Of a stretch of 28,006 nt of DNA, positions 17,745 through 26,822 are shown piece after piece. The DNA comes from a virus. The notes beneath the pieces are model-generated. The model saw only the letters and a program-made list of their open reading frames with translations, did no database searches and was not told where the DNA came from. Location: the UHGV virus genome UHGV-0119633, one strand, 5' to 3'. Position 1 is the first letter of the stretch, and each line of letters begins with the position of its first letter. The position numbers were made by a program, and so were the translations under genes.

Positions 17745-18004
17745 AATTCGTCCTCCAAATTTAATCTCGGAAAATGTTTATCTAATAGCTCCAAAAGTTT
17801 TTCTGCACATTCTGGACACATGTCTAGCCGTAAATGTTTGTGTCTATTATTTCTATCCTTGATAGTGAGCGATAACCAAGATTCATCATAAATAGGATCT
17901 AACGCAATTTTTTCGTCAATGACATGGTCAGCCTCAAACCGTATCTTACACATATCGCAAGTATGTTTGATTTTTTTAAATTTTCTTCCTAAATCTGTCG
18001 CCAT
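17741..18004 (-). CDS. zinc-ribbon protein (CDMC...CPEC), 87 aa
   Basis: ORF track; RBS GAAGGGAG. Confidence 0.55.
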   Translation of the reverse strand: MATDLGRKFKKIKHTCDMCKIRFEADHVIDEKIALDPIYDESWLSLTIKDRNNRHKHLRLDMCPECAEKLLELLDKHFPRLNLEDEL

Positions 18005-20103: not shown

Positions 20104-21672
20104 CTATTTAGCCAAGCCCCTTTCGTTTAGTGCATCCTCAACTGCGGAATATCGATCTGAGTTAAGTTGCTCTAATAAGCACTCTAGCGGATCGGTGTTA
20201 TTACTAAGCACCATATTGGTAATAATCGGACTAAATCCACTTACTAAAGCAACTCCTAGATCGTTCTCTTTTACTGGGATGGTTCCTGTTCTGCTACAAA
20301 TGTTCCAGAATATCAATCTAGGAAGTTTATAGCCGTACTGAGAGTAACGATCTGATATCGTATTAAACAGTGTTTTACTCGGTCTGATATTGCTCCATCT
20401 TGAACCTCCTTCGCAACTAGCACAGCTATCAAATTCCATATCTGATAAGATAAGTATGTTTTTAGGAATGTCGTTCTGTGACATGTTATTGTTGATTGCT
20501 GTTTTGAGAATAAGTTCAAATACAGCTTCGATGTTTGTGTTAGCCACCTCGTTGTATCTCCTGGCAATTTCGATCTTTTCTCTCAAAGATTCTCCGTTAC
20601 TAAGATCTACTAAACGAGGATTCATGCTGAATGTAATATATTTGTCTCTGAATTCACCAGAACTTCTTTCAGAAAAATATATTGCAAGAGCATTGGCTAC
20701 CTCTAAAGCTGTTACACTTGTTCCGCCGACAGGACAGTCCATACTACCCGATCCGTCCGCAACGCAAATTGTGTTACCGTCTCCGTTTACATAATCGGGA
20801 AGTGCTTTCCACAATTCTTCAAGTGTAATGTCATCTTTACCTTTGAGTTTATTCCCGTACCAAAATTCACCCCGATCAAAGTATTTATGTACAATATCAT
20901 GCGGGAATAGTACACCAGCATTGATTTTCGTCTCGCCTTTCTGCAAACTCGCTAAGTAACTACTTCTCCTTTCCTCATCGTTCTTCATAAACGCATTACC
21001 ATATATAATATTGGCTCTTGATGGAACCGCAGAATAATCAATCTTTGACCATTCTTTCTTACACATACTAACTTCCACAACTTTTAAATATGCACGAAGA
21101 TCCGAAAGCATTTTACGATAGGATTTCTCGTTAATAAATAACTTCTGAATCATAAGACGTGCTAGTCGTTTTGTCTCTTTAGACGAAGTGTTTGCAGACG
21201 GCATCCATTTAGCTAATAAAGAAATAGGCTCTCCTAGAGATCTCTTCCTTATATCACTTGTCAACTGTGTAGATACAATTGATACAACGTAGTCTGAAAC
21301 GTCAGTGTCTAATAAACACCATAAATCATCCCATCTACCGTATTCCGGAACCAACGGAATGATTGCCTTTGATATATCGGCATGTTTTTCGGATAGATAC
21401 TTAAGACAATATCTGAATAATCTTCTTTCTCCGAGACCTTCTCGTACATCTCTGGCATAGAACAACCACTTGATAGCAAGCTGTTTGTTTTCGTAGAATG
21501 TCTTTACAAACTTGTCTACGATTTCTCCCTCGTCCATATTTCGCATGGATGTTACTGAAAAGTTGATGTCAAGAAGTTCTTTACCAGTAGTACGGTAACC
21601 AACTGCTCCATTTTCAGTAAGGCTTGTGTTGAATTCATCATTGATTGTTTCTTTCAGATTGTTCATAAACAT
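20104..21672 (-). CDS. vWA-domain protein with MIDAS motif and TROVE/Ro60-like N-terminal region (DUF2828-like)
   Basis: 522 aa; DGSGSM (DxSxS MIDAS) followed by vWA-like layout; N-terminal GYRTTGKELLD and LAIKWLFYARDVREGLGERR resemble TROVE module; RBS AAAGGAGAAAAACT. Confidence 0.6.
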   Translation of the reverse strand: MFMNNLKETINDEFNTSLTENGAVGYRTTGKELLDINFSVTSMRNMDEGEIVDKFVKTFYENKQLAIKWLFYARDVREGLGERRLFRYCLKYLSEKHADISKAIIPLVPEYGRWDDLWCLLDTDVSDYVVSIVSTQLTSDIRKRSLGEPISLLAKWMPSANTSSKETKRLARLMIQKLFINEKSYRKMLSDLRAYLKVVEVSMCKKEWSKIDYSAVPSRANIIYGNAFMKNDEERRSSYLASLQKGETKINAGVLFPHDIVHKYFDRGEFWYGNKLKGKDDITLEELWKALPDYVNGDGNTICVADGSGSMDCPVGGTSVTALEVANALAIYFSERSSGEFRDKYITFSMNPRLVDLSNGESLREKIEIARRYNEVANTNIEAVFELILKTAINNNMSQNDIPKNILILSDMEFDSCASCEGGSRWSNIRPSKTLFNTISDRYSQYGYKLPRLIFWNICSRTGTIPVKENDLGVALVSGFSPIITNMVLSNNTDPLECLLEQLNSDRYSAVEDALNERGLAK

Positions 21673-21716
21673 AGTTTTTCTCCTTTCTTACGGTTTTTAA
21701 TCCCTTTGTTTTAAAT

Positions 21717-21870
21717 TTGCTGTTACCGCCTTAGGTCAAGATGCTTCATTCTTCTTAATTGCCAACATTAAAAATTGCTGTTAGCATCTTAAAAAAGAAA
21801 AGAGAGTAGCTGTTACAAGATACTATAATTCGCTCATCCAATTGTTTTAATTAGTTGCTGTTAGTATCTT
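21717..21870. repeat. four dispersed copies of TTGCTGTTA(G/C) in leader of vWA gene
   Basis: TTGCTGTTACC 21717, TTGCTGTTAGCATCTT 21775-21790, TAGCTGTTACAAGATACT 21806-21824, TTGCTGTTAGTATCTT 21855-21870. Confidence 0.5.
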
Positions 21871-21885
21871 TATTTAACTACTACT

Positions 21886-21917
21886 CTCTCTCATAATAGG
21901 TGTTGTAAATTTCGCGT
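21886..21917 (-). promoter_or_regulatory. conserved intergenic motif, copy L
   Basis: Minus-strand GACGCGAAATTTACAACACCTATTATGAGAGAG; heads the repeat-containing leader of the vWA gene. Confidence 0.35.
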
Positions 21918-21919
21918 CT

Positions 21920-25912: not shown

Positions 25913-26239
25913 CTAATAAACACCCATCTTCCTAGCAAACTCTAGTATTTCCTCCATAGTTAACCACTCAGGTTTATCATTCTCGTCGAAAGAATTCCAA
26001 ATATCTTTCATGTTCTGGATATGCTGCTTTTCATCTTTAGCCCAGAGAACGTTAGCACTTCCTCCAATCCTCAAGTAATACTCACAATCCTGTCTCATTC
26101 TGTCTAACATCATATATCTGAAACGCTTTTCTGATTTCAAAATATCTTTCATGGTTAACAGCCCCTTCATTTTTTGTAATAAATCTTTCTTTACCGGAAG
26201 AGCAGGTTTTTCTTTAGTTAAATAAAAATAAGTTACCAT
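25913..26239 (-). CDS. hypothetical protein (108 aa)
   Basis: Start at ATG 26237-26239 with AAAGGAA RBS. Confidence 0.5.
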   Translation of the reverse strand: MVTYFYLTKEKPALPVKKDLLQKMKGLLTMKDILKSEKRFRYMMLDRMRQDCEYYLRIGGSANVLWAKDEKQHIQNMKDIWNSFDENDKPEWLTMEEILEFARKMGVY

Positions 26240-26256
26240 AGACATTCCTTTCATTT

Positions 26257-26454
26257 CTAATCCGTATATTCATGAACTGTATTTAGAACTTTACTAGCAC
26301 CAGAACAACCGCCTATTTCGATAGATAACGTGGCTAAATGTTCTGTTAAATACGTCGCAGCTTCAATATCGTTAACGTATTTGTTACATATGATCTGACA
26401 GGCTGCGATTCGTTTAAGCAATTCGTCCTGTTTATTTTTAGTTAATAGTTTCAT
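26257..26454 (-). CDS. hypothetical small protein (65 aa)
   Basis: Start at ATG 26452-26454 with AAAGGAGAGG RBS. Confidence 0.5.
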   Translation of the reverse strand: MKLLTKNKQDELLKRIAACQIICNKYVNDIEAATYLTEHLATLSIEIGGCSGASKVLNTVHEYTD

Positions 26455-26465
26455 AACCTCTCCTT

Positions 26466-26822
26466 TCATTTGTATTCAAATAGCACTTGCGTATCTGGAC
26501 TGCATTCTTTTCGTTCTTCTTTTTCGCAATATGGGCAACCAAACTTGTCGTAGTTTAGATGCTTACAAAATTCACAAGTTCTTAAAAACGGAACTGGAAA
26601 ATTACCAAAATCCCAGAAAGATATCTCCCCGCACTTAGAACATTTATACTTAATGATTCCGTCATTATCCTCTATAAATTGTCCATTTTTAATAAGTTCG
26701 TTGATGCACTTAGGACAATATATGAAGGTATGTTGTTTGTTCTTATTTCCATGTTTGATAATGAAGTCTAACATTATAGACCACACCATAATGATTATCA
26801 CTGCTATTAAAATATCAATCAT
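26466..26822 (-). CDS. membrane-anchored multi-CxxC zinc-ribbon protein
   Basis: Start at ATG 26820-26822 (MIDILIAVIIIMVW); four CxxC pairs. Confidence 0.55.
   Translation of the reverse strand: MIDILIAVIIIMVWSIMLDFIIKHGNKNKQHTFIYCPKCINELIKNGQFIEDNDGIIKYKCSKCGEISFWDFGNFPVPFLRTCEFCKHLNYDKFGCPYCEKEERKECSPDTQVLFEYK

What the first reader, a model, noticed from the sequence alone, without database searches (positions are those of the whole stretch)
21673..21919. Repeat-rich 247-nt leader upstream of the vWA gene
Downstream of promoter-like motif L, the leader carries four copies of TTGCTGTTA(G/C). Two are a 16-nt near-identical repeat, TTGCTGTTAGCATCTT and TTGCTGTTAGTATCTT, with a partly palindromic TGCT...AGCA core. 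This looks like an array of binding sites for a regulator (one of the XRE or RHH proteins in the window?) or a structured RNA leader controlling the vWA gene.
Basis: seen in the sequence. Interest (0 to 1): 0.5.

Follow-up and report, generated by a model that had tools for sequence, protein, structure and literature searches.

The report
Y-RNA-like modules beside phage Ro-like gene
The "repeats" are the reverse complement of an invariant RNA motif (ACAGCAA next to a short helix) that occurs in tandem beside a Ro60-like protein gene in many unrelated phages, so they are most likely small structured RNAs bound by that protein, not DNA sites for a repressor.

Summary
The repeat is real. TTGCTGTTA occurs three times exactly; the "fourth copy" is a chance look-alike. 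It was read on the wrong strand: all genes here are on the minus strand, where the motif is UAACAGCAA.

Each true copy follows the 5' strand of a 7-8 bp helix, whose 3' strand ends in a conserved G. The helix sequence differs between copies but stays paired.

The same module (helix, 1-2 nt, ACAGCAA, variable loop, helix, G) lies next to the orthologous gene in gut Clostridia phages and in Listeria, Bacillus, Enterococcus, Staphylococcus, Fusobacterium, Campylobacter, Salmonella and Mycobacterium phages. It is always on the gene strand. In relatives it is often grafted onto tRNA-like bodies.

A covariance model built without the window's lineage hits window 21813-21874 (E 1e-7) and 21734-21794 (E 2e-6). 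The third copy is truncated by a 5-nt deletion.

Best reading: Y-RNA-like ligands of a Ro-like protein, with the last copy possibly acting as a translational operator. Binding is inferred, not shown. This is a new variant of a known kind.

The parts
21813..21874 (-). Module 1 core: helix AAGAUACU/AGUAUCUU, spacer A, ACAGCAA (21855-21861), 29-nt loop, then 3' G
   Evidence: The model R2, built without this lineage, scores it 45.8 bits, E 1.3e-7.
21791..21892 (-). Extended hairpin around module 1. The outer stem is GAGAGAGAGUAGUAG.UUAA / UUAA..CUACUCUCU and is followed by the U tract UUUUCUUUUUU (21791-21801). It looks like a closing stem of a small RNA, or an intrinsic terminator.
   Evidence: The 97-nt fold has -29.3 kcal/mol, z -5.5. 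L068 keeps the outer stem with a different sequence, followed by GCUUUUUUU. The terminator scan did not flag it because the loop exceeds 8 nt.
21807..21815 (-). It is the 3' strand of the outer stem, not a motif instance.
   Evidence: It has one mismatch. It reads UAACAUCUA in L070 and is unrelated sequence in L068.
21734..21794 (-). Module 2: helix AAGAUGCU/AGCAUCUU, spacer A, ACAGCAA (21775-21781), 29-nt loop with an inner hairpin, then 3' G
   Evidence: R2 scores it 39.8 bits, E 2.3e-6. The fold has -16.1 kcal/mol, z -3.1. Relative to module 1 it shows a compensatory A-U to G-C change.
21687..21736 (-). Module 3, truncated: AAGGCGGU-A-ACAGCAA (21717-21723)-loop-ACCGU. The CUUGU that completes the 3' strand in L001 and L070 is missing here. 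The module ends 3 nt before the Shine-Dalgarno sequence.
   Evidence: R2 gives only a local hit of 15.7 bits, E 0.3, in the window. The intact copy scores 40.6 bits in L001 and L070. The deletion is shown and the folds.
21680..21686 (-). Shine-Dalgarno sequence AAAGGAG of the Ro-like gene (ATG at 21670-21672)
   Evidence: Read from the sequence.
21893..21898 (-). Weak -10-like TATTAT directly before the extended hairpin, inside a block CGCGAAAnUUACA..CUAUUAUGAG shared with L068 and L070
   Evidence: In Bacillus phage Tsamsa, Fusobacterium phage Fnu1 and Listeria phage cka16, consensus promoters sit directly before the first module. Its function here is inferred.
20104..21672 (-). 522-aa DUF2828 + DUF7788 (vWA, MIDAS DGSGS) protein with a Ro60-like fold. 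It is the proposed protein partner.

Best explanation
On the minus (gene) strand, the 247-nt gap encodes three tandem copies of a conserved RNA module.

**Module anatomy.**
- A 7-8 bp helix, usually 5'-(A/U)AG(A/G)(C/U)NNN.
- One or two unpaired nucleotides.
- An invariant single-stranded ACAGCAA.
- An A/U-rich variable loop.
- The 3' strand of the helix, followed by a conserved G.

**Proposed role.** The module is the recognition element by which the adjacent Ro60-like DUF2828-vWA protein binds its own small RNAs. In that sense it is the counterpart of the Ro-binding helix of Y RNAs.

**The three copies.**
- Module 1 is wrapped in a longer stem followed by a U tract. It probably yields a discrete small RNA of about 95 nt.
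- Modules 2 and 3 lie in the 5' leader of the protein's mRNA.
- Module 3 ends 3 nt before the Shine-Dalgarno sequence. It could let the protein repress its own translation.
- In this window, module 3 is crippled by a 5-nt deletion.

**Shown:** the motif, the helix and its covariation, the strand specificity, the co-location with the gene across distant phages, and the Ro60-like fold.

**Inferred:** transcription as stable RNA, binding by the protein, and autoregulation.
For: **1. RNA-level structure**
- The minus-strand fold has z -3.6; the plus strand has z -1.4.
- The helix is 94-96% paired, against 68% in shuffles and 34-47% in slid controls.
- Cells changed on both sides number 115 of 384 and 255 of 912, against 35 and 70 expected.
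- The helices include G-U pairs, which would be C-A mismatches on the other strand.

**2. Family membership, tested independently**
- Model R2, built only from other phages, hits the two intact window modules at E 1e-7 and 2e-6, and nothing else in 28 kb.

**3. Strand and location**
- ACAGCAA occurs 427 times on the gene strand and 26 times on the opposite strand, with about 29 expected per strand.
- 119 of 119 model hits in 39 viral loci are on the gene strand, as are 62 of 62 in 80 bacterial or MAG loci.

**4. The gene is the only constant neighbour**
- Modules flank it in Bacillus Tsamsa, Fusobacterium Fnu1, Listeria LMTA-34 and cka16, Salmonella Felixounavirus, Mycobacterium Samty, Enterococcus EfV12-phi1, Staphylococcus SEP9 and Campylobacter F367.
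- The window itself has modules but no tRNA gene. The link is therefore to the protein and not merely to tRNA clusters.
- Reverse test in IMG/VR: 26 of 52 stretches holding a helix-forming module carry the gene, against 7 of 68 stretches holding a chance match.

**5. The protein is Ro60-like by fold**
- Ro60 is known to bind adjacent, same-strand, often tRNA-like Y RNAs (PMC4201824, PMC12135203).

**6. tRNA-like bodies in relatives**
- In relatives the module replaces or extends the anticodon region of tRNA-like genes. 32 of 36 long tRNA hits carry it.
- 40% of instances are followed by a T-arm-like or anticodon-arm-like hairpin, against 7-10% in controls. This echoes YrlA.

**7. Signs of expression**
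- Consensus promoters sit directly before the first module in three phages.
- In Listeria phage CKA15 the orthologue's upstream region holds extremely abundant non-coding RNAs. The authors guessed these were Y RNAs (PMC12282133).

**8. Leader position**
- In 67 of 130 distinct upstream regions the last module ends a median of 48 nt, and as little as 18 nt, before the start codon.
Against: - There is no binding or expression data for this phage or for this motif.
- ACAGCAA is unlike the known Ro-binding motifs (GGUCCGA; GNCGAAN0-1G).
- The protein has no sequence-level similarity to Ro60, and RNA binding by DUF2828 proteins has never been shown.
- About half of the upstream regions lack an exact-motif module within 400 nt.
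- Vibrio phage nt-1 gave no model hit.
- Half of the module-bearing IMG/VR stretches did not include the gene in the DNA held.
- The sequences used for the covariation counts were picked because they form a helix. This inflates the percentage paired, although not the diversity of pair types.
- The promoter in the window is weak.
Confidence: 0.6

Rival explanations
1. Pure cis-acting leader or attenuator. The hairpins only control expression of the downstream gene, through termination at the module 1 U tract and occlusion of the ribosome-binding site by module 3. No stable trans-acting RNA is made.
For: - The modules lie between the upstream ORF and the gene.
- Module 1 looks like a terminator.
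- Module 3 abuts the Shine-Dalgarno sequence.
- The last module often lies 18-72 nt from the start codon.
Against: - In Staphylococcus, Salmonella and Mycobacterium phages the modules lie downstream of the gene.
- Modules occur 1-3 kb away, inside tRNA-like genes and behind their own consensus promoters.
- An invariant 7-mer in many copies suggests one shared reader, not local folding.
Confidence: 0.15
2. The module is read by some other factor of tRNA metabolism or of the phage-host conflict, not by the DUF2828 protein. Candidates are a host or phage RNase, RtcB-type repair, a modification enzyme, or a host anticodon nuclease for which the RNAs act as decoys.
For: - The modules are embedded in tRNA arrays and tRNA-like bodies.
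- Many carry anticodon-arm mimics (UUU, GUU, GCU, CAU).
- An RtcB gene lies nearby in a Listeria phage.
- Tad2-like and Tad8 anti-defence genes lie next to the locus in relatives.
Against: - The window, Fnu1, SEP9 and F367 have modules directly beside the gene with few or no tRNAs.
- Across the lineages examined, no other gene is a constant neighbour.
Confidence: 0.18
3. The repeats are DNA operator sites for an XRE or RHH transcription factor encoded in the window.
For: There are three or four direct repeats in a non-coding region upstream of a gene.
Against: - Strict strand asymmetry.
- No dyad symmetry.
- The flanking sequence changes so as to keep base pairing, including G-U pairs.
- The motif is present inside tRNA-like genes.
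- It is conserved in phages of Firmicutes, Actinobacteria, Proteobacteria, Campylobacterota and Fusobacteria, which do not share such regulators.
Confidence: 0.03
4. The module is a small selfish or mobile RNA/DNA element that spreads into intergenic DNA and into tRNA anticodon loops.
For: - It is multi-copy and tandem.
- It is found inserted in tRNA bodies and in circularly permuted form.
Against: - Copies within one genome have different helix sequences. Only the 7-mer, one G-C pair and the 3' G are fixed. This argues against recent copying.
- The tight link to one gene and one strand also argues against it.
Confidence: 0.04

Closest known systems
Bacterial and phage Y RNAs (YrlA, Yrn1) with Ro60/Rsr (Chen et al. 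2014, PMC4201824)
   Same: - Small structured RNAs encoded within a few kb of a ring-plus-vWA protein, on the same strand.
- Often several per locus.
- A short conserved single-stranded or bulged motif beside a helix serves as the presumed protein handle.
- The rest of the RNA is frequently a tRNA mimic.
- The module takes the place of the anticodon arm.
   Different: - The motif is ACAGCAA after the 5' strand, not GNCGAAN0-1G or GGUCCGA.
- Rfam Y_RNA and YrlA models do not hit.
- The protein is Pfam DUF2828, not TROVE, and is related to Ro60 only at fold level.
- The module occurs both open-ended and as a capped hairpin inside complete tRNA-like genes (circular permutation).
- The window's copies have no tRNA-like part at all.
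Thermus phage phiLo Ro60 with Yrl1 and Yrl2 (PMC12135203; PDB 9KOP, 9L5Y)
   Same: - A phage-encoded Ro-type protein with two candidate RNAs directly upstream of its gene.
   Different: - phiLo Ro60 is a canonical TROVE protein.
- Its RNAs were found through the CGAA motif.
- Binding and PNPase recruitment were shown experimentally there. Nothing is shown here.
Highly abundant non-coding RNAs upstream of CKA15_055 in Listeria phage CKA15 (PMC12282133)
   Same: - CKA15_055 is the orthologue of the window protein. P100-like phages carry three ACAGCAA modules 70-340 nt upstream of it.
- The authors proposed Y RNAs.
- The protein was found in virions.
   Different: - No motif or structure was defined in that paper.
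- Their most abundant region (26,236-26,727) appears to lie further upstream than the three modules.
- I could not map their coordinates onto the modules.
Autogenous translational operators that mimic the protein's RNA ligand (for example the E. coli thrS leader; from general knowledge)
   Same: A copy of the ligand-like element sits next to the Shine-Dalgarno sequence of the protein's own mRNA (module 3).
   Different: This is untested here. The position is not universal among relatives, and the window's copy is damaged.

Membership tests
Y RNA / YrlA family | Encoded near a Ro60-type gene and on the same strand | tested here: met
   The window modules lie 18-200 nt upstream on the gene strand. 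All 181 model hits in 119 loci are on the gene strand.
Y RNA / YrlA family | Conserved Ro-binding motif (GGUCCGA bulged helix, or GNCGAAN0-1G near the 5' end) | tested here: not met
   The invariant motif is ACAGCAA. There is no Rfam Y_RNA or YrlA hit at gathering or E<=10 thresholds.
Y RNA / YrlA family | tRNA-like domain (T and D arms) | tested here: not met
   It is absent in the window (ARAGORN 0, Rfam 0). It is present in many relatives: 32 of 36 long tRNA-like genes carry the module.
Y RNA / YrlA family | The partner protein is a TROVE-domain Ro60 orthologue | tested here: inconclusive
   Pfam gives DUF2828+DUF7788, not TROVE. There is no sequence hit to Ro60. The fold matches Ro60 over both domains.
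Y RNA / YrlA family | Physical association of the RNA with the protein | not testable with these tools
   This needs EMSA, RIP or CLIP.
Ro60-like (TROVE+vWA) proteins | Alpha-helical repeat ring followed by a vWA domain with a MIDAS motif | tested here: met
Transcription-factor operator array (XRE/RHH) | Dyad-symmetric or double-strand-readable sites whose conservation follows the regulator | tested here: not met
   The sites have no symmetry and a strict strand bias. The flanks covary as RNA helices. Conservation spans five phyla.
Intrinsic terminator (module 1 outer stem) | Stable stem-loop directly followed by a U run | tested here: inconclusive
   The stem has -29.3 kcal/mol and is followed by UUUUCUUUUUU. 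L068 keeps a stem plus U7. The consensus scan did not call it because the loop is too long. There is no transcript data.
tRNA gene | Cloverleaf recognised by ARAGORN or the Rfam tRNA model | tested here: not met
   There are no hits in the window.

The most novel reading that the evidence does not exclude
The helix-ACAGCAA element is a portable 'handle'. Phages graft it onto hairpins, tRNA halves, anticodon-arm mimics and whole tRNA bodies, so that one Ro-like, virion-packaged protein can carry a panel of tRNA-like RNAs. This RNP would act early in infection, either as a decoy or as a repair/quality-control platform against host tRNA-targeting defences. It would be a second, independent Ro/Y-type RNP lineage, widespread in tailed phages.
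Probability: 0.15. Interest if true: 0.9.

Novelty: new variant of a known kind. Interest (0 to 1): 0.72.

Why it matters
DUF2828 'Ro-like RNA-binding' genes are common in large tailed phages. A search found 711 GenBank phage records, and more than 8000 database proteins, the cap of the scoring. No ligand and no function is known for them.

A defined, easily searchable RNA module that travels with the gene gives three things:
- a concrete candidate ligand to test;
- an explanation for many unannotated or mis-annotated stretches in phage tRNA regions, including 'tRNAs' of about 115 nt and small spurious ORFs;
- a possible identity for very abundant phage non-coding RNAs seen in transcriptomes.

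If binding is confirmed, it would be a second recognition code for Ro-type proteins. It would also be a natural example of a protein handle grafted, in both circular permutations, onto tRNA scaffolds.

Tried and rejected
- **Rfam:** gathering threshold on the window and on 25 related loci, and E-value mode on the gap and on two arrays. Only tRNA was found, plus chance snoRNA/miRNA hits with E>1.
- **ARAGORN on the window:** nothing.
- **Megablast of the region against GenBank phages:** no match.
- **Sequence searches of the protein and of its profile against PDB:** no Ro60 hit. Only fold comparison links them.
- **Plus-strand RNA:** folds no better than chance.
- **Plus-strand promoter reading:** TTGCCA-17-TAGCAT overlaps a repeat, scores 9/12 and is not conserved. 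Rejected.
- **Minus-strand promoter inside the module 1 loop:** TTAAAA-17-TATAGT is not conserved in L068. Rejected.
- **A repeated 'motif L' promoter:** not found in the window.
- **Pseudoknot between ACAGCAA and the loops:** no complementary UUGCUGU was seen on inspection.
- **Intron hypothesis for the tRNA inserts:** the inserts carry conserved flanks (AAAUG......GGUAAAAAGSC) or sit 5' of an anticodon-like arm, not at position 37/38. They do not look like introns.
- **Weak model hit at 17809-17850 (minus):** lacks the motif and has E about 0.5. Treated as chance.
- **Mapping the published CKA15 coordinates onto the modules:** failed. The record is not in the collection and the supplement holds no coordinates.
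- **Exact 16-mer scan of IMG/VR:** about 93 hits, roughly the chance expectation. It was useful only to show that there are no extra copies in the source contig.

Full report
**1. What is in the window**

All ORFs around the finding are on the minus strand. The gap 21673-21919 (247 nt) lies between the stop of a 59-aa ORF and the ATG of a 522-aa gene at 20104-21672.

TTGCTGTTA occurs exactly three times in the 28-kb window, at 21717, 21775 and 21855, all in the gap. A one-mismatch copy, TAGCTGTTA, is at 21807.

On the gene strand the repeat reads UAACAGCAA. The minus-strand transcript of the gap folds much better than shuffles (-51.8 kcal/mol, z -3.6). The plus strand does not (z -1.4).

**2. 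Anatomy of the three copies**

Each true copy follows the 5' strand of a helix, and the partner strand lies about 30 nt downstream.

| Module | Sequence (5' to 3') |
|---|---|
| 1 | AAGAUACU-A-ACAGCAA-[29 nt]-AGUAUCUU-G |
| 2 | AAGAUGCU-A-ACAGCAA-[29 nt]-AGCAUCUU-G |

The single difference between the two 16-mers (C against T on the plus strand) is one side of a compensatory A-U to G-C exchange.

- Module 1 is enclosed by a further stem (GAGAGAGAGUAGUAG... / ...CUACUCUCU) followed by UUUUCUUUUUU. As a 97-nt hairpin it has -29.3 kcal/mol, z -5.5.
It is UAACAUCUA in L070 (protein 98% identical). In L068 the sequence is unrelated but the stem is kept. It is a look-alike, not a copy.
- Module 3 is AAGGCGGU-A-ACAGCAA-[22 nt]-ACCGUCUU-G in the source IMG/VR contig (L001) and in L070.
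- The window lacks CUUGU there, which leaves a 5-bp helix. Module 3 ends 3 nt before the Shine-Dalgarno sequence AAAGGAG.

**3. Relatives**

The window comes from IMGVR_UViG_3300045988_045688. In 67 viral loci that encode relatives of the protein (36-68% identity), ACAGCAA occurs 427 times on the gene strand and 26 times on the other, with about 29 expected per strand.

The instances fall into two arrangements.

- **Type I** is the window's kind: helix 5' strand, 0-2 nt, ACAGCAA, a loop of 11-120 nt, helix 3' strand, G.
- **Type II** is its circular permutation: 3' strand, G, a short loop, 5' strand, 1-2 nt, ACAGCAA. It sits in the anticodon region of tRNA-like genes.
- In 18 related loci, 36 of 96 Rfam tRNA hits are 103-133 nt long, and 32 of those hold exact ACAGCAA near nt 55-65.
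- 40% of 509 instances are followed within 60 nt by a T-arm-like or anticodon-arm-like hairpin, against 7-10% in controls.

**4. Covariation and an independent model**

A MAFFT alignment of 48 type I modules gave the following.

- All eight helix positions show changes on both sides.
- 95.6% of cells are paired, against 67.8% in shuffles and 34-45% when partners are slid.
- 115 cells are changed on both sides, against 35 expected.

These sequences were chosen because they form a helix. The percentage paired is therefore inflated, but the diversity of pair types and the fixed register relative to ACAGCAA are not. A partner-swap control on all 324 instances gave helices of at least 8 bp in 45% of true pairs against 12% of swapped pairs.

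Model R2 was built from 44 modules that excluded the window, L001, L068 and L070.

| Target | Score | E-value |
|---|---|---|
| Window 21813-21874 (minus) | 45.8 bits | 1.3e-7 |
| Window 21734-21794 (minus) | 39.8 bits | 2.3e-6 |
| Truncated module 3 in the window | 15.7 bits | 0.3 |
| Intact module 3 in L001 and L070 | 40.6 bits | 1.6e-5 |

R2 found 119 hits in 39 viral loci. It found 62 hits in 80 loci from bacterial genomes or MAGs, mostly Lachnospiraceae and other Clostridia, which points to the likely host range. Every hit is on the gene strand. On the 119-hit alignment, 94.3% of cells are paired against 67.8% in shuffles.

The fixed features are ACAGCAA, an A-U and a G-C pair near the base of the helix, the 3' G, and a G-poor loop start.

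**5. Breadth across phages**

The same module flanks the orthologous gene in the phages below.

| Phage | Modules |
|---|---|
| Bacillus phage Tsamsa | 2 upstream, the first right after TTGACA-17-TATAAT |
| Fusobacterium phage Fnu1 | 1, after a consensus promoter |
| Listeria phages LMTA-34 and cka16 | 3 directly upstream, after TTGACA-17-TATCAT |
| Enterococcus phage EfV12-phi1 | 3 upstream |
| Campylobacter phage F367 | 2 upstream, overlapping an annotated small 'CDS' |
| Staphylococcus phage SEP9 | 3 directly downstream |
| Salmonella Felixounavirus | 4 downstream among tRNAs |
| Mycobacterium phage Samty | 3 downstream |
| Vibrio phage nt-1 | No model hit; only a bare ACAGCAA 20 nt before the start codon |

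The neighbouring genes differ in every case, and only the DUF2828 gene is constant.

The window has modules but no tRNA gene. This argues that the link is to the protein and not merely to tRNA clusters.

A reverse search of IMG/VR used the pattern AGAC-N4-5-ACAGCAA-N22-52-GUCUWG. The gene was found in 26 of 52 stretches whose match forms the helix, against 7 of 68 stretches with a non-pairing, chance match.

**6. The protein**

- Pfam assigns DUF2828 plus DUF7788 (vWA). PHROG 850 calls it 'RNA-binding protein'. SEA-PHAGES annotators call the mycobacteriophage homologues 'Ro-like RNA binding protein'.
- An AlphaFold2 model built from 47 sequences has pLDDT 81 and pTM 0.73.
- By Foldseek its six best PDB matches are all Ro60/Rsr, aligned over the full length (E 1.6e-6 to 2.9e-5).
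- There is no sequence-level similarity to Ro60.

**7. Literature**

- Ro60/Rsr proteins bind Y RNAs that are encoded nearby on the same strand. Bacterial YrlA RNAs carry a GNCGAAN0-1G motif and a tRNA-like domain in which the Ro-binding stem replaces the anticodon arm. That survey covered only TROVE-annotated genomes (PMC4201824).
- Thermus phage phiLo Ro60 binds two upstream CGAA-motif RNAs and recruits host PNPase (PMC12135203).
- In Listeria phage CKA15, the orthologue of the window protein (CKA15_055) was matched to Rsr by HHpred and was found in virions. Three extremely abundant non-coding regions lie within 2 kb upstream. The authors suggested Y RNAs but defined no motif (PMC12282133).
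- No paper in the library mentions ACAGCAA in this sense, and none links DUF2828 with an RNA.
- Rfam 15 has no matching family.

**8. Interpretation**

The shown facts fit one picture best:
- an invariant single-stranded 7-mer beside a covarying helix;
- strict gene-strand polarity;
- many copies per locus;
- frequent fusion to tRNA-like bodies;
- constant partnership with a Ro60-fold protein across phyla.

The module is the RNA handle recognised by the DUF2828 protein, and the RNAs are functional analogues of Y RNAs. I put this at about 0.6. That the element is a conserved structured RNA family tied to this gene I put at about 0.9.

In the window, module 1 (own weak -10, closing stem, U tract) probably gives a discrete small RNA. 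Modules 2 and 3 are leader elements. Module 3, next to the Shine-Dalgarno sequence, may be an autogenous operator (about 0.3), and it is damaged in this variant.

Binding, transcript ends and regulation are inferences.

The rivals are listed separately:
- a purely cis-acting leader;
- another tRNA-related reader or a decoy role;
- a DNA operator array;
- a mobile element.

The DNA-operator reading is effectively excluded.

**9. Novelty**

The principle, a Ro-type protein with adjacent Y-type RNAs, is known. Four things appear undescribed:
- the motif;
- its pairing with the DUF2828 branch;
- its modular and circularly permuted use on tRNA scaffolds;
- its spread across tailed phages.

I therefore rate it a new variant of a known kind.

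Noticed in passing
window 21689/21690 (minus-strand CCGU|AAG); also two further differences from L001: The window differs from its IMG/VR source contig and from L070 by a 5-nt deletion (CTTGT). The deletion removes the outer half of the 3' strand of module 3, just before the Shine-Dalgarno sequence. There is also an AA deletion and a G>T change elsewhere. This could be a natural variant or an assembly error.
   Followed up: partly
L012:2569-2921, L010:2539-2915, L005:2064-2717 and 30 more: tRNA-like genes of 103-133 nt have a 40-60 nt insert carrying a hairpin plus ACAGCAA in or before the anticodon arm. Several share one body but show different anticodon-like loops (GUU, UUU, GCU). ARAGORN misses them; the Rfam tRNA model finds them.
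   Followed up: partly
L044:2813-2900 (also L035 and L059, upstream of the gene): A conserved GC-rich element of about 90 nt resembles tRNA-Sec. It scores 38 bits, below the gathering score of 47, with E 1.8e-6. Its anticodon loop is CUUGAAA.
   Followed up: partly
L084:980-2080 (Listeria phage cka16): Two consensus sigma-A promoters are followed by about 330 nt and about 700 nt with no ORF and no Rfam hit, flanking a tRNA. They probably correspond to the hugely abundant CKA15_059-061 transcripts of PMC12282133. They are distinct from the three ACAGCAA modules.
   Followed up: partly
L070:4640-4918; L069:1174-1947: Anti-Thoeris-type genes lie next to the Ro-like gene in close relatives: Tad8 (PF25189) immediately downstream and a Tad2-like gene (PF11195) upstream. 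In the window the downstream neighbours are instead a 56-aa ORF and a Bro-N anti-repressor-like gene.
   Followed up: no
L288:3858-3995 (Campylobacter phage F367_017): An annotated 45-aa 'hypothetical protein' lies on top of two module hits (37.1 and 26.3 bits). It is probably not a gene.
   Followed up: no
L077:5841-7052 (Listeria phage LMTA-34): An RtcB-type 'tRNA splicing ligase' gene lies 1.3 kb downstream of the Ro-like gene. This recalls the rsr-yrlBA-rtcBA arrangement of Salmonella.
   Followed up: no
window 17809-17850 (minus): A weak model hit (14 bits, E about 0.5) has an AGACAC/GUGUCC helix but no ACAGCAA, and it lies in coding sequence. It is most likely chance.
   Followed up: yes
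L286:3280-3873 (Enterococcus phage EfV12-phi1): Each of the three modules is preceded by a second conserved hairpin (UAGCUNNNACC..GCC.GAAGCAUAAAGAA). This may be a lineage-specific extension of the module.
   Followed up: no
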